Notes: generated by a model not told the origin, from the sequence alone. Positions 2,347-19,824 are shown, numbered from the stretch's first letter. The stretch: DNA of 20,000 bases from an uncultured virus (IMG/VR IMGVR_UViG_3300010885_044417) (IMGVR_UViG_3300010885_044417), one strand, 5' to 3'. Program-made: numbers and translations.

Positions 2347-3192
2347 ATGGGAGGATCCGCATCATCCACGCCTACTTACGCTGCGCCGCTAGGCGCGGAT
2401 TACGCTACTGGAATGGGCTCGGCTCTTTCTTTAGGAAATGGCGTGGCCAATGCTGCAATTGCAATGCCTGCAGAGGTTCGTCAAGCTGAAGTTGACCGGC
2501 TTCAAACAATGGCTCCTAGAGAAGCTGTAATTAACGCATTGAAGTCCGCGGAAATGGAAAAACTATTGACTCCCGAAGTAGCCGGAGTCCGAGTAAACTT
2601 AGCTAAGCAAGCCGCGCAAGATTTTTCCGCAGGGCCTTCTAAAGAACTTTCTAACTTATGGCTCAAGCAAGGTCTAGCAGATGCTATTGCTACCGGCGCA
2701 AAGTCAGATTCCGGGTTTGCTAGGTCTGCCATAGCCGACAGCACGCGCGCATCGTATTTGCAAGATCGGCGAGAGCAGCAAGACCGAGCGGCTCGGTTCC
2801 TTAGTGCAAATCCCATGCCCGCTGCAGGGCTAGATCCTGGATCGATTGCTAGTGCCATGACGGGCGTCAACACAGCAAATGCCAATGCCCGCGACGCCTA
2901 CAAAGCCCAAGTGCTAAATATCCTAGGGAACAACGCGGCAAATGTCACAAATGCTTTCCAACAGGCCATGCAAATGGAAGCGGCACGCAGATCCGGAGAC
3001 GCGCAGGCTATGAATGCTATGGCTTCGGCAAACATGCAATCCGCATCTTCGCGGCAAGCCGCTATTTTAGGAGCTATCGGATCTGGAATAGGGACCGCGG
3101 CAAACATCGCAGGAACTGCAATTATGTACGGAGGAACCGACGGAAAGCCAGGAGGCGCCGGAATGTTCCGAAACGGGTCTTGGACCGAATAA
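2347..3192 (+). CDS. Putative ejection/DNA pilot (internal virion) protein, paralog A
   Basis: 281 aa, Ala/Gln-rich and predicted helical, with an MGG N-terminus and a Gly/Ala hydrophobic C-terminal segment (AILGAIGSGIGTAANIAGTAIM). Collinear with 3197-3979. Confidence 0.7.
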   Translation: MGGSASSTPTYAAPLGADYATGMGSALSLGNGVANAAIAMPAEVRQAEVDRLQTMAPREAVINALKSAEMEKLLTPEVAGVRVNLAKQAAQDFSAGPSKELSNLWLKQGLADAIATGAKSDSGFARSAIADSTRASYLQDRREQQDRAARFLSANPMPAAGLDPGSIASAMTGVNTANANARDAYKAQVLNILGNNAANVTNAFQQAMQMEAARRSGDAQAMNAMASANMQSASSRQAAILGAIGSGIGTAANIAGTAIMYGGTDGKPGGAGMFRNGSWTE

Positions 3193-3832
3193 ACTTATGG
3201 GAGGCGCACCTTCAGGCCAAGCTACGTACGCGGAACCCCTCGGCGCCCAGTATGCCGCAGGAATGGGAAACGCTTTAGCGCTAAGCAACAAGGTTGTTGA
3301 CTACGCTGTCGAAAATAGGCCCGAGCTTCGCGAAGCCGAAATTAACCGGCTTCAGACCATGGCTCCGAGAGAAGCGCTGATCAATGCGCTAAAATCTGCG
3401 GAGATGGAAAGAACTTTGACGCCAGACGTGGCAAAAGTCCGTCTAGGGCTTTCAAAACAAATGGCTGAAGATCTCGATGGCGGGCCTTCTAAAGAGCTTT
3501 CCAATATGTGGTTGAAGCAAGGTCTTTCAGATGCAATTGCTACCGGCGCCCGATCTGATTCTGGGTTTGCTCGCGCAGCATTAGCTGATTCGACTAGGCG
3601 CGACTATCTTGCAAACCGTAGAACTCAGCAAGACCGCGCAGCTGCCTTTTTAGCGGCAAACCCAGTTCCGGTTGCCGGCCTAGATCCTGGCTCTTTAGCC
3701 AGTATCATGACGCAGACAAACGCAGAAAATGCCAACGCTCGTGACTCCTACAAAACGCAAGTTCTCGGGGCTTTAGGAAACCAAGCTGCCAATGTCACAA
3801 ATGCTTTCCAACAGGCCATGCAAATGGAAGCG
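2941..3832 (+). repeat. 42 bp perfect direct repeat (2941-2982 and 3791-3832) inside the tandem paralogs
   Basis: aatgtcacaaatgctttccaacaggccatgcaaatggaagcg is identical in both genes. The copies are offset by 850 bp, the same as the offset between the two start codons. Confidence 0.95.
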
Positions 3833-3979
3833 CAGCGCCGAGCCTACAACGCGCAAGCCGCCAACTCGATGACCGCAGCCAACATGCAAGCCAGCAGCTC
3901 TAATTCTGCATCTTGGATGGGACTCGGCGGAGCCGGAATTGGAGCCGCGGCTGGAATTGGAGCCGCGGTTATTATTTAA
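3197..3979 (+). CDS. Putative ejection/DNA pilot (internal virion) protein, paralog B
   Basis: 260 aa. Shares RLQTMAPREA, INALKSAEME, GPSKELSN.WLKQGL, AGLDPGS and NVTNAFQQAMQMEA with paralog A. Hydrophobic C-terminus WMGLGGAGIGAAAGIGAAVII. Confidence 0.7.
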   Translation: MGGAPSGQATYAEPLGAQYAAGMGNALALSNKVVDYAVENRPELREAEINRLQTMAPREALINALKSAEMERTLTPDVAKVRLGLSKQMAEDLDGGPSKELSNMWLKQGLSDAIATGARSDSGFARAALADSTRRDYLANRRTQQDRAAAFLAANPVPVAGLDPGSLASIMTQTNAENANARDSYKTQVLGALGNQAANVTNAFQQAMQMEAQRRAYNAQAANSMTAANMQASSSNSASWMGLGGAGIGAAAGIGAAVII

Positions 3980-4872
3980 TGGACTCAAAGATCGATCTAG
4001 CGTTAGACCGGATTGAGCGTTGGCGTCAAGTTTGGCCCAACGCGGCGGTCCTTTGGAGTGGAGGAAAGGACAGCACGGCAATGCTGCACCTGCTTAAATT
4101 TAAGGCTGGCCTAGATTTGCCAGTCGTGCAGTACCGCGAGCCTAAATTTCGAGAGCGCTACGTGTACTCTGATAAGTTAATCAAAGACTGGCAACTAGAG
4201 GTCTATGACTACCCTCCTTTTCGGGTGGCCATAGCCGATGGACCCGATACAAGCACGGGAAAAATTCGTTTTGACATGCTGAAGTATCAGCAGTGGGGAG
4301 AAACTTCCATCATTCTTTCTTTAGGAACTGAACCTCCTGAAGAAGGAAAGCCATACCTTTGCGGCGTATCAGATTTCCTGCAGCGCCCGACTGGAACTTT
4401 TAATTGGCCTTGGACTAGCGTGTTTATTGGAACTAAGTACTGCGATACCGATCCAATCAAAGGCCACGTTCCTTTAGCTGTCGATGTTCGTCCGACTAAC
4501 GGCGGTCCGGTTAGTTTGTACCCATTGCGGGATTGGTCGGATCTTGATGTCTTCGAGTATTTGGAGGACAATGGAATCGAGCCAGACCCTACTAGGTACA
4601 TCCAGGAAAACGGAATCTGGATTTCAAACCCAGATAAATCTCAGAATGCAGACTACTACCCAGTCTGTTTCAACTGCGTAAACCGCCATGCCGGAGAATA
4701 CGTAGACTGTCCTAAGCTAAAAGCCACCGTGCCAAATATGTCGCACCTGGCTCCGTACGAAGACGTAGTCTTTAAGGACCTTGGATTTAGGCCAGTTTGG
4801 CCTCAAGATCTTGCAGTAGAAGATAGTGTTCAAGAGTCAACCGGCTCGCTATCTTCTCGGCAAGACAAGTAA
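3979..4872 (+). CDS. PAPS-reductase-family (PP-loop adenine nucleotide alpha hydrolase) protein, 297 aa
   Basis: PP-loop WSGGKDSTAMLHL near the N-terminus, VFIGTK..D, and YPLRDWSDLDVFEYL (cf. PL.DW...DVW.Y), plus a C-terminal CFNC...CPK. Start moved from the track's 3913 to the ATG at 3979, which overlaps the upstream TAA (TAATG). Confidence 0.85.
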   Translation: MDSKIDLALDRIERWRQVWPNAAVLWSGGKDSTAMLHLLKFKAGLDLPVVQYREPKFRERYVYSDKLIKDWQLEVYDYPPFRVAIADGPDTSTGKIRFDMLKYQQWGETSIILSLGTEPPEEGKPYLCGVSDFLQRPTGTFNWPWTSVFIGTKYCDTDPIKGHVPLAVDVRPTNGGPVSLYPLRDWSDLDVFEYLEDNGIEPDPTRYIQENGIWISNPDKSQNADYYPVCFNCVNRHAGEYVDCPKLKATVPNMSHLAPYEDVVFKDLGFRPVWPQDLAVEDSVQESTGSLSSRQDK

Positions 4873-7373: not shown

Positions 7374-10300
7374 ATGGCCACTGATTCTTCTTCACTGGCC
7401 AAAGATGTTGACGACGTCTTTGGCGCGCTTTTGGCAACCAAGCCAAAATACGAGCAGGAAGAAGAGAAGAAGCCTGAGGAAATTGCTCCTCTAGGCGAGG
7501 CCGCAAAGCATTTTGATACGGCCCTTAGCTCAGCCATTGACATGCCAGCCGGATACCAGGCTGAACAAACTCCCTATTCTCAGCTTGGGCCTGAGGCCAA
7601 AAAAGTTCAATTTCAATTTGACTCGCTTGAGGCAGGGACTGACCCAAAGAAACTTCGAAAACTTCAGGCTGATGGCGAGCCTCTAACTGAAGACCAAGAA
7701 AGGTCAATCTTTAAAGGCGAGCGTGACGCTCCTCTTAGTGAGCAAGCCAAAGACGTGGCATCTGGTTTTGGCCACGCTGTCAAAAGCCTGGTCTGGGATG
7801 ATCTTCTTGTTGGAGGCGGGAAGACTATTAAAGCTGCAGCGGCTATTCCAATGGCGATGGCCAAACAGACTTACACTAACGACCCGAATGCTTCTGACGA
7901 AGAAGCTCGGCAGCAGTATGCAGAGGCTGAGAAAAAGCATCAGGAAGGAGTCGACGCGGCAAAAGATGAAGCTTACAAAGCAGCTCGCTCATTTACTTCT
8001 GGCGTGGTTCAAGGAGTCGAAGGATTAACTGGCACCGCAGTTCGCGGCGCCATGTACGGCACTGGAATTACTGACCGAATCCGCGAACAGCCTGGCGGAA
8101 ATATGATCATGGACGCCGTTCTTTCTGGAGGATCAGAAGACGCGGCATTGCTTTCGGCTCTCAATCTTGGCTCCGAGCAAAACCGCCCCTCGGGAATGCC
8201 TACCGGAAAATTTAAGGGCCGGGACGTTGCTGGAAATATCGATCTTGACAGCCGGCCTATCGTCCAGAACGAAGATGGTTCTGTTAGCACGGTTCGGTCG
8301 ATGTCGTTTAATGACGGCGAGCATGAAGTCTTAGTTCCTACAGTCAGTCCAGACGGCAAAATTCTTTCCAACGAGGACGCTATTAAGCTGTACCGTGAAA
8401 CTGGCCAACACCTTGGGAAATTTAAGACTGTCGAAGATGCTGATGCTTACGCCGAAGCACTTCACAAAGCGCAAGAGGCCCGGTACGCAACCCCTGCCGG
8501 GGTAGATCCTGGGCAAACAGAAGAACAATCTTTCCAGAACTGGCGGAACCGCGAGCAGATGCGGCGCATGGAAGCTGAAGAAAATCAGCAAAATCCAGAC
8601 CGCGCGGCTGCCGTAATGGCGGAGCTTACAAGAATGGTCCCGGTTGGTGACCAGAAATTTCGTGAAGAGGTTGCGCAAAACATTCTTGACAATCAAATCA
8701 CGCCTGACCCAAATATCGCAGGCTTTGGTATGGCTGTGTCGCCAATTAACCCGGTCGTCTTTGGGGCTGGGCCGTTAAACAAACTGATTGGAGGAGTCGT
8801 AGATAAAGGTGCTGAAGGAGTACTTCGGGCAGCCCTTAAACCGACGGTGGCTGGAATGCACCCGATTGAGGCGCTTGGAGTTGGCCTCCAAAAAGTGGCT
8901 TCTGGAACGCAGACTGCCGGAAAGCGTCTGAGTGATTTTCTTACTGGAACCGAGGATTCGGCAGTGGCTAAGTTTTTTGATCCACTGGTCGTTGCGACTA
9001 AGCGGCCGGGAATGGTTCTTGAAGGAACTGGCCGAATTGCTAGGGATCTTGGCCGTCAGATTGACGAAGGCGGATTCATGGGCCGGACCGGGGTATTCCA
9101 GCGTGCCGGACAAGATGCCGAGTCTGGTAACTTTGTCAAAACAGTGTTTGGCCAGGGCGCGGAGAAAGAGCGCCCACGCGGCGCTGGTCGCGTCGCAGAA
9201 GATACCGAAGGTGCATCTAAGCCCCTTAGGATCGGACCTACCACGGCCAAAGCTGCAGATTGGGTTTCCAGTACCGCGTACAACCTAAACAAGCATGGCC
9301 TCAGCGGCGGAATTATCGGGGTCGCTTTAGGAACTCCAGACATCGAAAATGCCGAGCAATTCGGAGCAGCTGCCGGTTCTGGCTATGCTTTAGGAGCTGC
9401 GCTGTCAACCAGGCCGGTCGGCAAAGTTGTCGATGTCCTGAATCCCAAGACTTCGTTCAAGCAGAAGGTTGACGCGGTCCTAGGTAAAGACGCGGCTGAG
9501 CGGCGGGCTGACGAGGATGCCGACATTGCCAGATTCCGAGCTACGGCAAGCCCAGAAATTCTAGCTCAGACCGACAGCTTTGGGTCTCAAGAATCTCACG
9601 TCCAAGCTTGGGACAACCACATCTCCCAGCTTCAGCAAGCCAAGGACGAGCTCTCAAAATCTGGCGGTGACACTAAGAATGCTGATGCGCAAATTGCAGC
9701 CGCCCAAAAAATTCGAGAATCCTTAGCAAAAGCTTCTCCAGACCAATTCAACGAAGTTCAGCGTCGGATCAATTTAACGGTAGCCGATGCTCTCGACCTG
9801 GCCAAGACTACCGGGGAAGCTGTGGGTCTTAACGGCTTGAATGTGCATTTTCTGGATTCAAGCCAGATGCCGGAGTTCATCATGAACAAGTGGGGAAAAA
9901 CCCTCACTGATGCCACCGCGGTTATTGACCAACTCGGCGGAAAGACCGACTTATCACAGTCTGAAAAAGAAAGCCTTTTGAGGGCCCGCGAAACAGTAGC
10001 CGAGGTCGAGAATCAACTTCAAATGTGGCCGAACCAGCGTGGTTTTGCCTTATCCCCCAATGAAATTGAAGAAGACACTCCTGCGCATCTTCGCATGGGC
10101 AATTTGCAAGGCCCTGAGATTGTAGTTAACGCGGACCTAATTCGTTCACAGCTTGGCACAAATCTGAGCCACGTTTTAGGCCATGAAGTTTTAGTCCACG
10201 GTCTTGGTCAGTTTAAGGAAGTTCGGGCGCTGATGCAGCCCATTCGCGAAAAGCTTTTTGGCATTCGCACCAAGAATATCGATGGGTCAGTCGATGAGAT

Positions 10301-13300
10301 TTCCCCAGGCATTATTTCAAATGAGGCCCTTGACAAGATGGCCGAAGTCTACGGCTTAAAGATGGGCGGAGGAAATCCCGCGGCTGCCGCTGCCTGGAAG
10401 TCTGGCTTTAAAGACCAAGAGCAACTTCGCGACTACATGCGTGAAGAGTATCTAGCGGAACTTTCTGGCCTTTCGCATAACGGAACTGGCGACCTGCGCG
10501 CTACGCTGGATTCTCCTGGCCAAGCTATCTCTGACTGGTTAGCCGTGCAATCTGATAACTCTGTGGTCGGTAAACTTAGAGACATGCTCGGCTTAAAAGG
10601 TATTGTTCTTGACGATCAGGGCAAAGTCTCGGATATTCTCGGCACGACTCTCGATCCCCAGGCTTTGGCAATGGTGCGTCAGTACCAGCGCAAACTTTCG
10701 GACCTTAACCGCGGTTTGTCGTTTGACTCAAGTAAAGCTAGCGACGTCGACATTTCGCTCAGCGAGGCGATGACCAACCGAGCAGTGCAAGAAAAGACCA
10801 AAGACCAAGATCTTTGGGAAAAAGAGCAGGTCTATCAAGTCAAAGACCAAAATGGAAATGTCATCGCCGAGATTCCAATTTCTAGCGAGAATGAAGCCAA
10901 TGGGCTGATTGGAGAATATCGCATCGAGAATGGATACCTAGTCGATGAAAAAGGCAACATGATGGAGCTTACGCCGGAACTGCGCAATGCTGCAATTCCT
11001 GGCGACGCCAAAATTTCTATTGAGAACCGAATTCTACGCAACCCAGATGGATCGCCTAAGATTCTAACTAATCGAGAAATCAGAGCTAGGGCCCGCGAGC
11101 GCAACCGATTAATCCGAGAAGCGCTTGATAATGCTCCGCAAGATGGATTTGAAGGCCGTCTCGAAGACATTGGCAACGGAGTCTACCGCGGCACAATGAG
11201 CCCGTCTCAAATTGCGGCTGTGATGGCTTTGCCAAATCGAATTGTGAGTCCCTCGTTAAAGCGCAAGATTGTGCAGTTCAATGAAGTCCTGCAGCGTAAA
11301 GACGGAAGCCGAGTCATTGTAGAGTATCAAGCTGCCTTGCGCGGAGGCGGATACAAGTCTCTGTCTCCCCGCATTCGGGACCTTGCGCCAATTGGATTCC
11401 ACTTTAGCAAAGACGGGAACTTCCTAGCTGTCAACATGTCTGTCAGCAGAATGTTTGATAAGCTGAATGCCTGGGTTTCGCAGAAGCCGGAGAATCTCAA
11501 TCTCTGGGGTCGCGACACCGGAAAGTTCTGGGAAGATGTCACTAAGGTCCTTGCCAACCACGCAGCAGGAAAACATGCTGAGGAAGGCCTTGACGTAGAT
11601 CCTGAAATTGCTCTGCAAAAGAAGAATCGTGTCAACGACTTTTTTAACATTTTTGTCAAGGACACTAAGCACCTAAATCCTGATCGTACGGTCCTAAAAA
11701 CCCGCCGCGGTCAAGATTCTGCGGATCGAATCATTATGTCGACCCGCATGGATCGCATCAACGCTATGGAGCTTTCTAACGCCGAGAAGCTTCCAGTGAA
11801 TTACGAAAAGATGAAGGTCAACTTCATGCCGCGAGGTAACTCTGCGGACAACGAGTTTTGGAACTCAGCTAGGCAGACGCTTTCAAACCGCGATGCTTTT
11901 GAAACTCGCGATGTGACTTTCAATGAGTCCGATGGGCCAAAGCCTCGCCGCGTTCTAAAGAGCGCTCCGCCCCAACCTGTTGGCGACACTCCGGCTTTTG
12001 CCGAATGGCAGCTCTCCAACATGGAGTTTGGCGCGGACGCTGGCTACACGGTGGCTCAGCTTCAAGACTTTGCCGCGCAAAACAAATTTAAGTCTGGCGT
12101 AGGCAAAGAGTTTGCTAAAGATGCAAAAGAAAGAATTACGGCAAAAGAGTCTGATGCCATTCGAGATCAGCTAGCCAGAGATAACGGATTTGAACCGCAA
12201 GGTGAGCACGAGCCAAATCCTGTATTTAGAGCTCGGCTTGAGGCTGCCAAAAAAGATCCAAACGGAGTCTTTAACCCAAAGTCGCCAAACTACCGGATGT
12301 TTTTAGATTGGCATGGTCAGCCTTTTACGCTGCATGAGCAAGCCGTCGACTATTGGACGTCGTCTAACTCAACCTCGCAGCATATCAGCGCGCATGACTT
12401 AGTGAGCCAGCATGGCCTAGAGCAAGCCATGAAGATTGCTGCTGACCAGTCTTCAGTCGTTGGAAAAAATCTTTATGGCAACAGCTACGGGTTAACGCCA
12501 AAAACTTTTACCACTGAGCCTGTAGGCCACGCGGCTGGGACAATTTCAAAAACCTATTACGATCTTCGGTCAACCCCAGAAGCTATTCGCCATGTCGAGC
12601 TTAATGGCTTGATTGAAAAAGCCGCCGAAGAACTTCGCAACATTGACTACGGATACGAGAATAACGAAGTGCGCAAAGCTAAAGAGCGAGAAATCAGAGA
12701 GCTCAAGCTAGAACAAGCTGACTTGGCCACAAGGCTTTCAGCCATGGCCGCCGTAAAATACTTTTCGGAGCGAAATCCGAACACTGCGCTATTCTCTTCT
12801 GGCGACCACGCCCAAGAGATTTTTAGCCAGCTAGGGTCTGAAGCAGCGGATTCATTTAAGCAAGGAACCAAAGTTTACCGCGGTCTTCTCCTAGACGAAG
12901 AGTATCATGGCAGCTTTATTAAGCGCAAAGGCGACGAGACCCTGGCTTCTAGAATTGAGAAAGCGCTGGCTGAAGACGGGTACTTTGATCTGCCTACTCG
13001 AGCATTGACCAGCTGGACGCAGACTGAAAAGTTAGCCTCGACGTTCTCTCGCCATGGTCAAGGCCAAAAAGACTACAACTCATCGGGAACCGGAATTGTA
13101 ATTACTCACGAGCCTGCCGCTTCCGAAGTTGTGATGCATCCTGGCATGCCGACGTACCAGTCAATCTTTGCCTACCGCAAGGCTAACGGTTACAAGTTCA
13201 ATAGCGGCGGGATGGACCAAAAAGAAGTCATCCTACGGTCTGAGCCTGGCGTATTCCGCTTGACTCCGGAGAATACAAAGTTTGTGAAGTTTATGCCTAG

Positions 13301-14717
13301 CGAAGGAGGAAGCCGGTTTAGCGAAAGCCTGGCTGAACCTAGCGAGAGGCAGCTTAGCGAGACCGAGAGAAACGAGCTTGCCGACTACATAATGACCAAC
13401 ATGGTTAGGCGTCCAGCCTTGCTATCGACTTTGGCGCAGCGTGAACTCTCGGAGCCCGCAACACTTTTCCGGCTTGGATTTGAGCTGCATCCTAAAATGC
13501 GCGAAGGACTAGTCGTTGACATTTCTAATAAGGGAGAAAACTTTGCTTCATTCAGCAAGCGTGACTTAGTCAATGACCCTGACGCCCAAGAAGCTATTTG
13601 GTCCCCACTTGGCAATGAGAGTGTCGATGACTTGCCTGTCACGTACATTATTTCAAATGCTAGCCGAGGATTTGAAGTACCTTACCATGAGCTCGACGAG
13701 GATCCTTCATTTGCGAGTGTTGACCATCTTAGAAACCAAGAGGAGGTCTTAGTCACTGGAAAATACCGCGTCAACGGGATTAGCGTGGAGAATGGGCGCA
13801 CGTTTGTTAATCTGGCTGAAGCGCACGACTCAATTACGCCAAATGCCCATGTGTGGTTTATGCCAGACTCCGGAATGGATGCTGACATGAATCTAGATCA
13901 TGAAGCTTTCTTAGACCACCTCGAAGATAACTACCGAGATGGCGTGATTCCAGTTTCGCACTCGCTGCCTAGGAAGTTCTGGGAAGCCGCTCAACGGAAA
14001 GGTTACCTCGGAGATGCCGGAGATTTCGATGGCGTATTTGCAACTTTGGGAGACAAGAGCGACTTTTATTCTGGAAAAGACCGCGTCCACGTGACCGCGC
14101 ATTTGCCTGCTGACAAGTACCTTGAGCACCTGACTCCGGATATGCGCTATGATGACGTGCAGCATTTTGTAGAAGAGCATCCTTATGCTGATGGCGGGGA
14201 CGTCTACGTGAATGCCCCGATCCCACTTGAGCATATTGTGAGCGTGGACGGAACAAAGTTTATGCCTTCGGGCTCTGAGTCGGCTAAAGAAGGCCTCAGC
14301 CTGGAGCAAGCCGAATTCACGGGCCTAGAACCTGCGGCTTTAGGTGGGGCGAGAGTGCCTAATCCTATGGAACCTTCCGACGCGCCCAGTGCCGCGCCAT
14401 TAAGCTTGGCGGCCGCTCCTGGCGAAGTCTACAGGCAGAAGTGGGAGCAAGCCCGTGTGGTTGATGGTTCTGAGGCCAGGCCCCAAGACCAGAAACTCTT
14501 TTTAGTCACGGTTGTAAAACCTAATGGGGAGCGGCTTGAAGACACATTCCCCATCCGGGCCCTGACCAGAGACAAAGCTTTTGAAGGACTTAAAGACCTG
14601 CGCCGAAAAATCTTTACGCGGTACCAAGGAAAAGCCGACCTGATGGTTTCCGAGATAAGCCCAGAAATGGACAGCGGCCCGGTTGATTGGGCCGCTCTCC
14701 GAGATGCTGCTCGCTAG
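7374..14717 (+). CDS. Giant polyvalent internal virion protein (2447 aa): zincin-like metallopeptidase motif plus three ADP-ribosyltransferase-like modules
   Basis: Uninterrupted 7.3 kb ORF at the end of the virion block. Motifs: HEVLVHG...EEYLAE; VYRG...TSWT...QKEV; LFR...FASFS...QEEV; VSHS...GVFAT...IPLEHI; four FMP linkers. Confidence 0.85.
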   Translation: MATDSSSLAKDVDDVFGALLATKPKYEQEEEKKPEEIAPLGEAAKHFDTALSSAIDMPAGYQAEQTPYSQLGPEAKKVQFQFDSLEAGTDPKKLRKLQADGEPLTEDQERSIFKGERDAPLSEQAKDVASGFGHAVKSLVWDDLLVGGGKTIKAAAAIPMAMAKQTYTNDPNASDEEARQQYAEAEKKHQEGVDAAKDEAYKAARSFTSGVVQGVEGLTGTAVRGAMYGTGITDRIREQPGGNMIMDAVLSGGSEDAALLSALNLGSEQNRPSGMPTGKFKGRDVAGNIDLDSRPIVQNEDGSVSTVRSMSFNDGEHEVLVPTVSPDGKILSNEDAIKLYRETGQHLGKFKTVEDADAYAEALHKAQEARYATPAGVDPGQTEEQSFQNWRNREQMRRMEAEENQQNPDRAAAVMAELTRMVPVGDQKFREEVAQNILDNQITPDPNIAGFGMAVSPINPVVFGAGPLNKLIGGVVDKGAEGVLRAALKPTVAGMHPIEALGVGLQKVASGTQTAGKRLSDFLTGTEDSAVAKFFDPLVVATKRPGMVLEGTGRIARDLGRQIDEGGFMGRTGVFQRAGQDAESGNFVKTVFGQGAEKERPRGAGRVAEDTEGASKPLRIGPTTAKAADWVSSTAYNLNKHGLSGGIIGVALGTPDIENAEQFGAAAGSGYALGAALSTRPVGKVVDVLNPKTSFKQKVDAVLGKDAAERRADEDADIARFRATASPEILAQTDSFGSQESHVQAWDNHISQLQQAKDELSKSGGDTKNADAQIAAAQKIRESLAKASPDQFNEVQRRINLTVADALDLAKTTGEAVGLNGLNVHFLDSSQMPEFIMNKWGKTLTDATAVIDQLGGKTDLSQSEKESLLRARETVAEVENQLQMWPNQRGFALSPNEIEEDTPAHLRMGNLQGPEIVVNADLIRSQLGTNLSHVLGHEVLVHGLGQFKEVRALMQPIREKLFGIRTKNIDGSVDEISPGIISNEALDKMAEVYGLKMGGGNPAAAAAWKSGFKDQEQLRDYMREEYLAELSGLSHNGTGDLRATLDSPGQAISDWLAVQSDNSVVGKLRDMLGLKGIVLDDQGKVSDILGTTLDPQALAMVRQYQRKLSDLNRGLSFDSSKASDVDISLSEAMTNRAVQEKTKDQDLWEKEQVYQVKDQNGNVIAEIPISSENEANGLIGEYRIENGYLVDEKGNMMELTPELRNAAIPGDAKISIENRILRNPDGSPKILTNREIRARARERNRLIREALDNAPQDGFEGRLEDIGNGVYRGTMSPSQIAAVMALPNRIVSPSLKRKIVQFNEVLQRKDGSRVIVEYQAALRGGGYKSLSPRIRDLAPIGFHFSKDGNFLAVNMSVSRMFDKLNAWVSQKPENLNLWGRDTGKFWEDVTKVLANHAAGKHAEEGLDVDPEIALQKKNRVNDFFNIFVKDTKHLNPDRTVLKTRRGQDSADRIIMSTRMDRINAMELSNAEKLPVNYEKMKVNFMPRGNSADNEFWNSARQTLSNRDAFETRDVTFNESDGPKPRRVLKSAPPQPVGDTPAFAEWQLSNMEFGADAGYTVAQLQDFAAQNKFKSGVGKEFAKDAKERITAKESDAIRDQLARDNGFEPQGEHEPNPVFRARLEAAKKDPNGVFNPKSPNYRMFLDWHGQPFTLHEQAVDYWTSSNSTSQHISAHDLVSQHGLEQAMKIAADQSSVVGKNLYGNSYGLTPKTFTTEPVGHAAGTISKTYYDLRSTPEAIRHVELNGLIEKAAEELRNIDYGYENNEVRKAKEREIRELKLEQADLATRLSAMAAVKYFSERNPNTALFSSGDHAQEIFSQLGSEAADSFKQGTKVYRGLLLDEEYHGSFIKRKGDETLASRIEKALAEDGYFDLPTRALTSWTQTEKLASTFSRHGQGQKDYNSSGTGIVITHEPAASEVVMHPGMPTYQSIFAYRKANGYKFNSGGMDQKEVILRSEPGVFRLTPENTKFVKFMPSEGGSRFSESLAEPSERQLSETERNELADYIMTNMVRRPALLSTLAQRELSEPATLFRLGFELHPKMREGLVVDISNKGENFASFSKRDLVNDPDAQEAIWSPLGNESVDDLPVTYIISNASRGFEVPYHELDEDPSFASVDHLRNQEEVLVTGKYRVNGISVENGRTFVNLAEAHDSITPNAHVWFMPDSGMDADMNLDHEAFLDHLEDNYRDGVIPVSHSLPRKFWEAAQRKGYLGDAGDFDGVFATLGDKSDFYSGKDRVHVTAHLPADKYLEHLTPDMRYDDVQHFVEEHPYADGGDVYVNAPIPLEHIVSVDGTKFMPSGSESAKEGLSLEQAEFTGLEPAALGGARVPNPMEPSDAPSAAPLSLAAAPGEVYRQKWEQARVVDGSEARPQDQKLFLVTVVKPNGERLEDTFPIRALTRDKAFEGLKDLRRKIFTRYQGKADLMVSEISPEMDSGPVDWAALRDAAR
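10182..10460 (+). other. Zincin-like metallopeptidase motif in the giant protein
   Basis: HEVLVH (HExxxH, 10182-10199) preceded by a beta strand (EIVVNAD) and followed by EEYLAE (10443-10460). This layout is typical of metallopeptidase domains in phage and plasmid polyvalent proteins. Confidence 0.65.
12870..13289 (+). other. ADP-ribosyltransferase-like domain 1 (R-S-E clade)
   Basis: VYRG at 12873, TSWT....A..F at 13008, QKEVIL at 13218. Confidence 0.75.
13299..13856 (+). other. ADP-ribosyltransferase-like domain 2 (R-S-E clade, VIP2/C3-like layout)
   Basis: Helix LSETERNELADYI, TLFR at 13461, FASFS at 13542, QEEVLVTGKYRV at 13737. Confidence 0.75.
13866..14258 (+). other. ADP-ribosyltransferase-like domain 3 (His-type, Tpt1/KptA-like fold)
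   Basis: VSHS (His at 13959) followed by helix ...AAQRKGYL, GVFAT at 14031, and a terminal IPLEHIVSV (cf. IPxxxI of this fold). Confidence 0.5.
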
Positions 14718-18987: not shown

Positions 18988-19824
18988 TTAAGCTAACAGC
19001 TTCGAGCTGAATTCTTGAAAGAACCCTTGAAGCCCAGACTTGTCATTTAAGTCAGGCTCGCCAAGAACCATTGCCAGCTGACCGCGGACATCTCCGATTG
19101 CCTCAAGGCTGTGGCCTGCCTCCAGCTCAAACGGGAGCTGCTGGTTCCAGTTTGAGATGGGCCAATCCTGGCACTTGGCAATGTCGCGCTCATAGACGTG
19201 GTGCGACCCGGCATTAAGAGTCAAAGTGCCAAGCTCAACCTCACGGCCATGCTGCCGAAGCATCTGCAACACGGACCATGACAGCATCGTGAAGTTGAAG
19301 ACGTCGTAAGGGAAGCCCAGCCAGACGTCATTCGACCTCATCGTGTCAATGCAGTGCAGTTTGCCATCTCTGACCAGCCACTGGACTGAAAGCGTGCAAG
19401 GAACGTCTTTAGTCTCAGGCGGGTTCTCCCTCCAGATGTTGCACACGGCTTGCCGAGTGTCTGGGTCGACTAAAAGCCTGCGAGTAGCTTCTCCGATTTG
19501 GCTGCCGATCTTCGGTCCGTAGGCTCCAAAGAAATCTTTGCCGTTGTCGCTAAAGTTGGCAATATTCTTGCAATACTTGCTGATTGAGGCGACGTCATTC
19601 TTGCCAGAGATAATCCACCAGGCTTCAGCGGCCATGAACTTGTAGCTCAGCTTGCGTGCGGCATTGAGGACGATCGGATAGCGCATGTCGACATGGACTT
19701 GGCTTCCGGTGATTTCTCGGACTGACATGCCTCTCGGCGAGGATTTTTGGCCGTTGTGGATAACGCCTGCAAGGAGCATTCCCCAAGCTTCTGTTGCGGT
19801 GTGGGCGACTGGATTAGTGTGCAT
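18988..19824 (-). CDS. Thymidylate synthase superfamily enzyme, probably a dCMP hydroxymethylase/methylase type
   Basis: FGAYGP, DPDTRQA, catalytic PCT, MRSNDVWLGFPYDVF and GSHHVYE. Asp occupies the position of E. coli ThyA Asn177. Confidence 0.88.
   Translation of the reverse strand: MHTNPVAHTATEAWGMLLAGVIHNGQKSSPRGMSVREITGSQVHVDMRYPIVLNAARKLSYKFMAAEAWWIISGKNDVASISKYCKNIANFSDNGKDFFGAYGPKIGSQIGEATRRLLVDPDTRQAVCNIWRENPPETKDVPCTLSVQWLVRDGKLHCIDTMRSNDVWLGFPYDVFNFTMLSWSVLQMLRQHGREVELGTLTLNAGSHHVYERDIAKCQDWPISNWNQQLPFELEAGHSLEAIGDVRGQLAMVLGEPDLNDKSGLQGFFQEFSSKLLA

What the first reader, a model, noticed from the sequence alone, without database searches (positions are those of the whole stretch)
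11817..14717. FMP-delimited cassette array in the giant virion protein: possible processed effector polyprotein
Seen: FMP occurs four times, at aa 1484, 1973, 2162 and 2296 of the 2447 aa protein. The last three copies each fall just after an ART-like domain. They divide the tail into modules of about 489, 189, 134 and 152 aa. Known: phage polyvalent proteins string together peptidase and ART domains and are thought to be delivered early in infection. Inference: FMP marks module boundaries, either as a protease cleavage signal that releases separate effectors or as a conserved junction at which cassettes are gained and lost.
Basis: partly seen in the sequence, partly recalled or inferred. Interest (0 to 1): 0.85.

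Follow-up and report, generated by a model that had tools for sequence, protein, structure and literature searches.

The report
Motif-fenced swappable phage effector cassettes
A giant protein of an uncultured freshwater phage has a conserved protease-like core followed by enzyme modules that related phages swap at a three-residue tag (Phe-Met-Pro), which is also a good but unproven candidate for the site where the protein is cut into separate enzymes.

Summary
Observation confirmed: FMP at aa 1484, 1973, 2162, 2296 (0.10 expected), and the last three follow ART-like domains. The tag is family-wide: in 85 homologues FMP occurs once in 111,653 core residues and 214 times in 137,782 tail residues, giving 82 architectures. 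Homology breakpoints fall on the tag (141 of 245 versus 16 expected), and close relatives gain or lose modules there. So 'cassette junction' is shown. Conservation is mainly at protein level (F/Y and M/L swaps, free Pro codon), and no site-specific recombinase or head protease was found in two complete relatives. The core keeps a zincin HExxH/HExxxH motif in 81 of 85, so self-cleavage at the tag is the best mechanism (about 0.5), but no cut is shown; some junctions lack the tag, and the tag abuts folded domains. A docking tag is the main rival. This is a polyvalent protein (Iyer 2017), for which processing was already predicted; the tag and cassette pool were not found in print. The scan noted similar tags with other motifs in other genomes.

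The parts
7374..14717 (+). Giant polyvalent protein, 2447 aa; last gene of the + strand (tail/ejection-type) block
   Evidence: 84 homologues; gene order in four complete relatives
7374..11822 (+). Conserved core, aa 1-1483, shared by the family and almost free of the tag
10182..10199 (+). Zincin-like HExxxH motif, aa 937-942 (HExxH in most relatives)
   Evidence: H937 and E938 invariant in 33 of 33; H, E, H invariant in 39 of 39; weak Peptidase_M48 hits in 5 of 39 members, best E 0.0024
10446..10448 (+). E1025, likely third zinc ligand
   Evidence: invariant; role inferred from zincin anatomy (PMC5512222 section 8)
11178..11813 (+). Last core domain (about aa 1269-1480) with a WYL/Sm-like barrel; function unknown
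   Evidence: VIA Z 8.2, rmsd 2.5, 91 aligned to PafBC; BrxR, CapW, DriD next; middling score
11823..11831 (+). Tag 1, FMP aa 1484-1486: end of core and start of the variable tail
   Evidence: Pro in 85 of 85, F/Y first in 70 of 85; follows helix 601-607 of the model, pLDDT falls from 71 to 43
11823..13289 (+). Module 1 (489 aa): about 330 aa not modelled, then an R-S-E-type ART (R1836, S1880, Q1949-K-E1951)
   Evidence: same module at other positions in P0056 and P0060 between YLP and FLP; outside-family homologues end here at their C-terminus
13290..13298 (+). Tag 2, FMP aa 1973-1975
   Evidence: F is the last residue of a strand, pLDDT 90 then 48
13290..13856 (+). Module 2 (189 aa): short spacer and an exoenzyme-type ART-like domain; absent from close relatives P0001 and P0106
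   Evidence: homologue in P0051 also lies between two FMP
13857..13865 (+). Tag 3, FMP aa 2162-2164
   Evidence: model uninformative here (pLDDT 34)
13857..14258 (+). Module 3 (134 aa): His-type ART fold (KptA/TreX/DarT-like, H2196)
   Evidence: stand-alone homologues of 130-365 aa without the tag
14259..14267 (+). Tag 4, FMP aa 2296-2298
   Evidence: pLDDT 95 then 59; a related strain has the synonymous Phe codon here
14259..14717 (+). Module 4 (152 aa): terminal module of unknown fold, kept last in close relatives
   Evidence: P0001, P0085, P0087, P0106

Best explanation
The protein is a phage polyvalent protein built as a chassis: a fixed core with a zincin metallopeptidase, then a variable string of effector cassettes, each opened by a short peptide tag (consensus P/G-G-A/I-R/Q-[FY]-[ML]-P-A/G). 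Shown: the tag marks the points at which whole cassettes are gained, lost and reordered among related phages. Inferred: (1) the protein is packed in the head and ejected; (2) the tag is kept because it is read at protein level, most likely by the protein's own zincin, which cuts at it (my guess is just before the aromatic residue, with the Pro three places after the cut) and frees the ART, GNAT, kinase and other domains in the head or in the host; (3) because every cassette must start with the tag, its codons give 8-20 nt of shared sequence, so ordinary short-homology recombination swaps cassettes in frame without a dedicated recombinase. I put about 0.95 on the junction, about 0.85 on protein-level reading, and about 0.5 on the whole statement including self-cleavage.
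For: Tag confined to the tail: FMP 1 in 111,653 core aa, 214 in 137,782 tail aa; 74 of 85 proteins have at least two internal sites; 82 architectures in 85 proteins. Breakpoints at the tag: 141 of 245 for alignments of at least 80% identity versus 16.1 at random (maximum 27 in 200); control patterns lacking the Pro or the aromatic residue give 18 versus 37 and 40 versus 35. Only 1 of 24 Pfam domains holds a tag inside, 9.8 expected. The three largest mobile module clusters have 12-17 different neighbours on each side. Outside the family the same ART domains lack the tag and end where it begins. Protein-level signature: F/Y and M/L exchange, 20 of 42 Leu codons are CTT or CTC, the Pro third base follows gene usage, and this phage uses TTT at 3 of 4 sites. 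The M-versus-L form clusters on the core tree (14 changes, shuffled mean 31.4, 0 of 200), and shared module families carry the form of their host clade. Zincin motif in 81 of 85. No head protease or site-specific recombinase among 99 ORFs of two complete relatives, and the tag is not repeated in other large ORFs of four complete relatives. PMC5512222 (sections 8, 34) predicts release of domains by embedded MPTases.
Against: No cut has been observed. P0080-P0082 have HExxE in place of HExxH yet keep 4-7 tags each; their tail modules are up to 98% identical to those of relatives whose cores are only 35-38% identical, so recent tail import may explain this, but it also fits a tag that needs no protease. 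Some junctions lack the tag (P0001, P0106), and 104 of 245 close breakpoints are not at it. In the models the Phe of tags 2 and 4 closes a strand of a folded domain, which would hinder a cut before it unless the protein is unfolded. A residual DNA bias exists: TTC in 136 of 143 tail FMP sites versus 70 of 86 FM-not-P sites. The zincin call rests on motifs and weak hits. N4 virion RNA polymerase, ArdC and TraC1 carry an MPTase and travel full length (PMC5512222 section 8). Clustering of the tag form on the tree may reflect shared descent of modules; I did not separate the two.
Confidence: 0.5

Rival explanations
1. Docking tag, no cutting. The tag is a short linear motif bound by a partner (the WYL/Sm-like barrel at the end of the core, another ejection protein, the portal, or a chaperone) that orders, silences or threads the modules during packaging and ejection. 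The protein stays in one chain.
For: Same protein-level conservation; tags kept in P0080-P0082 despite HExxE; a barrel fold lies directly before tag 1, and the peptide-binding adaptor SspB is among weak matches (Z 4.1 and 3.6; its peptide binding is recalled); N4 vRNAP has an HExxH domain and is described as a single-chain beads-on-a-string protein (PMC13434306 passages).
Against: An invariant zincin site with no other evident substrate; the WYL match is middling (Z about 8) and gives no function; the number of tags varies from 1 to 11 per protein, which suits a catalytic reader better than a fixed scaffold (inference).
Confidence: 0.25
2. Recombination scar only. The 8-nt sequence is a DNA crossover site (microhomology or an unknown recombinase's core), and the peptide is a by-product.
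For: TTC in 160 of 173 internal Phe codons versus 78 expected; DNA identity between relatives ends at +8 to +20 in 61 of 73 pairs and begins at -15 to 0 in 45 of 49 pairs; one relative encodes an Erf-like annealing protein.
Against: Most of the TTC bias is codon context (70 of 86 at FM-not-P); the Pro third base is free and M/L exchange uses codons two bases apart; in tails the 8-mer on the coding strand was found only in the coding frame (170 times); this phage mostly uses TTT; no flanking symmetry in the nucleotide profile; no integrase or site-specific recombinase hit; no free orphan cassettes in 66 loci.
Confidence: 0.12
3. The tag is cut, but by another protease: a host enzyme or an unrecognised phage head protease.
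For: Tags persist where the zincin motif is altered; many ORFs of the relatives, including capsid-region genes, have no family hit.
Against: Tag not repeated in presumed portal, scaffold or capsid ORFs of four complete relatives (these labels are my reading of gene order); no protease hit other than endolysin-type peptidases.
Confidence: 0.1
4. The ATG in FMP is an internal translation start that makes C-terminal isoforms.
For: 156 of 198 internal sites have ATG.
Against: 21 of 42 Leu variants use CTT, CTC or TTA, which are not start codons, and the upstream nucleotide profile shows no conserved ribosome-binding signal; whole clades use Leu.
Confidence: 0.03

Closest known systems
Phage-type polyvalent proteins with a zincin-like MPTase (Iyer et al. 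2017, PMC5512222)
   Same: Giant multidomain protein; HExxH/HExxxH plus Glu; relatives carry ART-PolyVal, Kinase-PolyVal, GNAT, ParB, methylase domains; processing by the MPTase already proposed.
   Different: In the passages and sections read, no repeated junction tag, cut site or cassette exchange point is described ('linker' occurs 0 times; its FTP supplements were not seen). The core here has no Pfam or PHROG family.
Polymorphic toxin and MuF cassette systems (recalled; PMC3482391 seen as search listing; MuF passages in PMC9503650)
   Same: Variable effector domains exchanged at a conserved junction; a homologue of the module 1 ART is the C-terminal domain of a MuF protein (P0102).
   Different: Here many cassettes sit in series in one frame, with a tag at each junction; no orphan cassettes were found in 66 loci; immunity genes were not looked for.
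Prohead-protease maturation of internal proteins (T4 gp21, SPN3US gp245; recalled, PMC10052503 seen as listing)
   Same: Short repeated motif in an ejected protein read by a phage protease.
   Different: Tag limited to one protein; no head protease found.
N4 virion RNA polymerase (PMC13434306) and phi24B gp47 (10.64898/2026.04.10.717836)
   Same: Giant internal or ejected podovirus proteins with an HExxH or metallopeptidase domain.
   Different: N4 vRNAP is described as single-chain; phi24B gp47's peptidase is proposed to act on peptidoglycan; no tag-delimited cassettes appear in the passages read.

Membership tests
Phage polyvalent proteins | Large protein joining unrelated enzymatic domains | tested here: met
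   Three ART-like domains in the window; ART-PolyVal, Kinase-PolyVal, GNAT, zeta toxin, methylase, PcfJ, ParB in 13 of 14 relatives scanned
Phage polyvalent proteins | Zincin-like MPTase with HExxH or HExxxH and a downstream Glu | tested here: met
   81 of 85 with the motif, 3 HExxE, 1 truncated; E1025 invariant; fold support weak
Phage polyvalent proteins | Encoded by a terminase-portal phage in a virion gene context | tested here: met
   Tail fibre gene upstream; terminase hits in complete relatives; the upstream gene's orthologue hits phrog_2534 'released from the phage upon host infection'
Phage polyvalent proteins | Packaged and injected with the DNA | not testable with these tools
   No virion proteomics
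Phage polyvalent proteins | Described LPD domains | tested here: inconclusive
   No Pfam hit for the window protein
Self-processing polyprotein | Repeated site at domain borders | tested here: met
Self-processing polyprotein | Sites exposed in linkers | tested here: inconclusive
   Family flanks are less hydrophobic than background (0.20-0.21 versus 0.29), but in this protein the Phe of tags 2 and 4 closes a modelled strand
Self-processing polyprotein | Cleavage by the embedded protease | not testable with these tools
   No biochemistry
Site-specific cassette system (integron/shufflon type) | DNA site conserved regardless of coding | tested here: not met
   Pro third base free, M/L and F/Y exchange, in-frame only; small residual TTC bias
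Site-specific cassette system (integron/shufflon type) | Dedicated recombinase | tested here: inconclusive
   No hit among 99 ORFs of two relatives; ORFs under 100 aa and some others were not scanned
Polymorphic toxin with orphan cassettes | Free cassettes downstream of the main gene | tested here: not met
   5 of 66 loci had module hits outside the main frame; four begin directly after its stop and look like continuations of the same gene, one is a single hit 3.2 kb away
Prohead-protease substrate | Same motif in capsid, scaffold, portal and other internal proteins | tested here: not met
   No other ORF of at least 140 aa in four complete relatives has more than two [FY][ML]P

The most novel reading that the evidence does not exclude
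One three-codon element does two jobs: it is the cut site of a new zincin specificity (aromatic-Met/Leu-Pro) and the crossover point for a communal pool of well over a hundred effector cassettes, so these phages run a self-diversifying, self-releasing effector magazine in which any domain captured behind the tag is delivered and freed at once, and whole tails move between cores only 35% alike.
Probability: 0.4. Interest if true: 0.85.

Novelty: new variant of a known kind. Interest (0 to 1): 0.62.

Why it matters
Processing of polyvalent proteins by their own metallopeptidase has been a prediction since 2017, without a named cut site in the text I read. Here a candidate site, the catalytic residues and natural variants (FMP, [FY]LP, ALP, HExxE cores) are all named, so the question can be settled with one recombinant protein. 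The tag also parses 85 giant proteins into 456 pieces and 171 clusters, most without a family name, which is a ready list of candidate early-acting counter-defence domains. It gives a concrete route for domain accretion in phage proteins.

Tried and rejected
No whole genome is held for the window. No match to the core in INPHARED phages or in GTDB genomes, so no cultured member or host was found. Pfam and PHROGs named nothing in the giant protein. Foldseek gave no match at E 0.001 for either model; a profile search of solved structures gave two weak, unrelated rows. Module 2 had no alignment rows, so its model is uninformative; aa 1484-1816 and module 4 were not modelled. A complex prediction of the core with a tag peptide was not available, so binding to the active site or the barrel is open. 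Contigs of three runs showed no joint that skips a module (low depth, contigs drop rare variants). Searches for viral loci with module 1 and modules 3-4 returned none usable. P0085, which starts inside module 3, lies on a 1361-nt contig and was treated as a fragment, not as a free-standing gene. Tandem duplication as the source of repeats was rejected: same-cluster copies within one protein are 31-52% identical (8 pairs). A general preference for CATG was rejected (observed/expected 0.62-1.10 in four genomes). Covariation between zincin pocket residues and tag form was not tested formally. Literature searches that found no description of this tag; the library lacks most subscription journals.

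Full report
Observation. The window is part of a phage genome: a tail-fibre gene, several small genes, a PAPS-reductase-like gene, then genes of 144, 664 and 2447 aa on the + strand, facing replication genes on the - strand. In the 2447-aa protein FMP starts at aa 1484, 1973, 2162 and 2296, against 0.105 expected; 7 of 1000 shuffles gave any tripeptide as enriched.

The family. A search with aa 1050-1490 returned 84 proteins of 1455-4160 aa; one is labelled Terrimicrobiaceae by its source, and the window's DNA is held by two freshwater metagenome runs and one unspecified metagenome run. The shared core ends at the same place: the third residue is Pro in 85 of 85, and the first is F or Y in 70 of 85, with ALP in 8 (positions estimated from the BLAST offset). 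Behind it the tails run from about 100 to 2800 aa. FMP occurs once in 111,653 core residues and 214 times in 137,782 tail residues beyond the first site; for [FY][ML]P the counts are 25 and 347. The consensus around 329 distinct sites is P/G-G-A/I-R/Q-[FY]-[ML]-P-A/G.

The tag is the swap point. In all-against-all alignment of the 85 tails, 41% of 4002 internal alignment ends and 44% of 3454 starts lie within -10 to +20 of a tag, against 7% at random. After merging redundant points, 141 of 245 breakpoints from alignments of at least 80% identity are at a tag (random mean 16.1, maximum 27 in 200); at 60% it is 278 of 658 (44.5), and with no identity limit 486 of 2195 (143). Patterns without the Pro or without the aromatic residue show little or no excess. 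Cutting at the tag (ALP allowed only for P0052-P0061) gives 456 pieces in 171 single-linkage clusters, 116 of them singletons; chance sites are included. Clusters 1, 2 and 4 have 12-17 different neighbours on each side, and there are 82 architectures among 85 proteins. I scanned 14 of the 85 against Pfam and kept 24 non-redundant domain stretches, dropping overlapping families and one weak thioredoxin row; 1 holds a tag inside, 9.8 expected. The nearest relatives show it plainly. P0001 (90% identical over aa 1050-1490) has module 1, lacks module 2, and has an extra domain after module 3. P0106 lacks modules 1 and 2 and goes from the core through a 29-aa spacer to module 3. Module 1 sits near the end of P0056 and P0060 between YLP and FLP, and module 2 lies between two FMP in P0051. 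P0080-P0082 share tail modules of up to 98% identity with P0065 and P0068, whose cores are 35-38% identical to theirs. Against a strict rule: in P0001 and P0106 module 3 and the extra domain have no tag between them, and 104 of the 245 close breakpoints are not at a tag.

The modules. A search of 1.84 billion representatives with the tail gave 23 hits. Nine relatives of the module 1 ART outside the family (P0086, P0088-P0094 and P0099, P0102 among them; one is a MuF protein) have no tag and end within a few residues of the point where tag 2 begins; relatives of module 3 are mostly small proteins without the tag. So the tag is an addition of this family, not part of the domains. The model of aa 1817-2319 (mean pLDDT 68.8) matches R-S-E-type ARTs over aa 1817-1976 (HopU1 Z 6.0) and KptA/Tpt1, TreX and DarT1 over aa 2174-2298 (best Z 7.6); these are middling scores, but the list is almost all ART folds. 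Module 2 was not modelled usefully; language-model features place it with ADP-ribosyltransferase exoenzyme clusters at 0.93, a weak-to-moderate result. In the model the Phe of tags 2 and 4 is at the end of the last strand, with confidence falling right after (90 to 48; 95 to 59), and tag 1 follows the last core helix (71 to 43). The tag therefore caps domains rather than lying in the middle of long linkers.

Protein or DNA signal. From 66 viral loci plus the window I took 236 distinct sites. The Phe codon is TTC in 160 of 173 internal sites against 78 expected, which first suggested a DNA site. The control removes most of this: Phe before Met without Pro is TTC in 70 of 86, against 136 of 143 at tail FMP sites; the sites are not independent, so I do not attach a P value to the remainder. 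The Pro third base follows gene usage, Leu replaces Met with codons that include CTT and CTC, and this phage uses TTT at three of four tags, in line with its gene (TTC share 0.28). A related strain has the other Phe codon at tag 4. DNA identity between relatives ends 8-20 nt after the tag start in 61 of 73 pairs and begins 0-15 nt before it in 45 of 49 pairs; the test design confines these points to a window around the tag, and the tag itself is shared by construction. Pairs that share the upstream side diverge after it in 36 of 133 cases at tags and 71 of 769 at other prolines. The Met or Leu form clusters on the core tree (14 changes, shuffled mean 31.4), and shared module families mostly carry the form of their host clade (I chose the Leu-host set from the tag composition, so this is partly circular, and shared descent of modules is not excluded).

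The reader of the tag. The core has HExxH in 76, HExxxH in 5 (the window among them), HExxE in 3 and is truncated in 1 of 85, with an invariant Glu further on. Family support is weak: Peptidase_M48 in 5 of 39 members, best E 0.0024. The model of aa 877-1497 (pLDDT 79.4, pTM 0.73) has no Foldseek match; its last domain resembles WYL/Sm-like barrels at Z about 8. In four complete relatives of 63-66 kb no other long ORF repeats the tag, and 99 ORFs of two of them gave no head protease, integrase or site-specific recombinase; one has an Erf-like annealing protein. The orthologue of the gene upstream hits a family annotated as released on infection. No orphan cassettes were found in 66 loci.

Mechanism. 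Shown: the tag marks exchange points of cassettes in a conserved chassis. Inferred, in falling order of support: selection on the peptide; packaging and ejection; cutting by the embedded zincin. The position of the cut is a guess from recalled zincin preferences for a hydrophobic residue after the bond; the listing of PMC12828418 says that Pro-Pro endopeptidases read P3 to P3', which shows only that a three-residue prime side can matter. A docking tag without cutting is the main rival, helped by the HExxE cores that keep their tags and by the tags' position against folded domains.

Comparison with print. PMC5512222 (abstract, passages, sections 8 and 34 read; its FTP supplements not seen and may bear on linker motifs) defines polyvalent proteins, notes the HExxxH variant, proposes release of domains by MPTases, and also lists MPTase proteins that stay whole. 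PMC13434306, PMC9503650 and bioRxiv 10.64898/2026.04.10.717836 were seen as passages; PMC3482391, PMC10052503 and the PPEP papers only as search listings. Six searches showed no description of this tag. The scan's own notes report similar tags with other sequences in other genomes; they are unchecked and are not support, and none matched this core by sequence.

Verdict. A real, family-wide feature; a new variant of polyvalent proteins in which a peptide tag defines an exchangeable cassette array and is a testable candidate cut site. Interest 0.62.

Noticed in passing
window 2347-3192 and 3197-3979: Tandem paralogous genes 850 nt apart, 68% identical over 242 aa; both begin MGG; one copy at this position in G001.
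   Followed up: partly
window about 8214-8489 (aa 281-372 of the giant protein): A roughly 90-aa insert in the core seen only in the window and P0001 by motif, with weak homologues in upstream genes of L044 and L047; GMP stands just before it at aa 274.
   Followed up: partly
window 11178-11813: WYL/Sm-like barrel at the end of the core, the best-conserved part of the family; could bind nucleic acid or peptide.
   Followed up: partly
window 3913-4872: PAPS-reductase-like gene inside the virion gene block, kept at the same place in G001 and G003.
   Followed up: no
P0088, P0095, P0097, P0100, P0103: Unrelated proteins carrying the same ART domains have other short motifs nearby (G-rich 'GHAGRPG'-like and 'HPRDD'-like), possibly tags of other systems.
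   Followed up: no
L034, L038, L020, L021: The giant gene stops early and module homology continues just downstream, in another frame in L034 and L038; assembly error or real break not resolved.
   Followed up: partly
P0080-P0082: Divergent cores with HExxE carry tails nearly identical to those of another clade: whole-tail transfer at the first tag.
   Followed up: partly
family tails (clusters 5, 7, 33, 55): Conserved mini-cassettes of 19-39 aa between two tags, too short for an enzyme; spacers or small effectors.
   Followed up: no
L069:7758-8438 and L069:16036-16899; window 18988-19824: G001 has two unrelated thymidylate-synthase families plus dCMP deaminase, a kinase and a Nudix gene; the window has one of them. 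Possible modified-base pathway.
   Followed up: no
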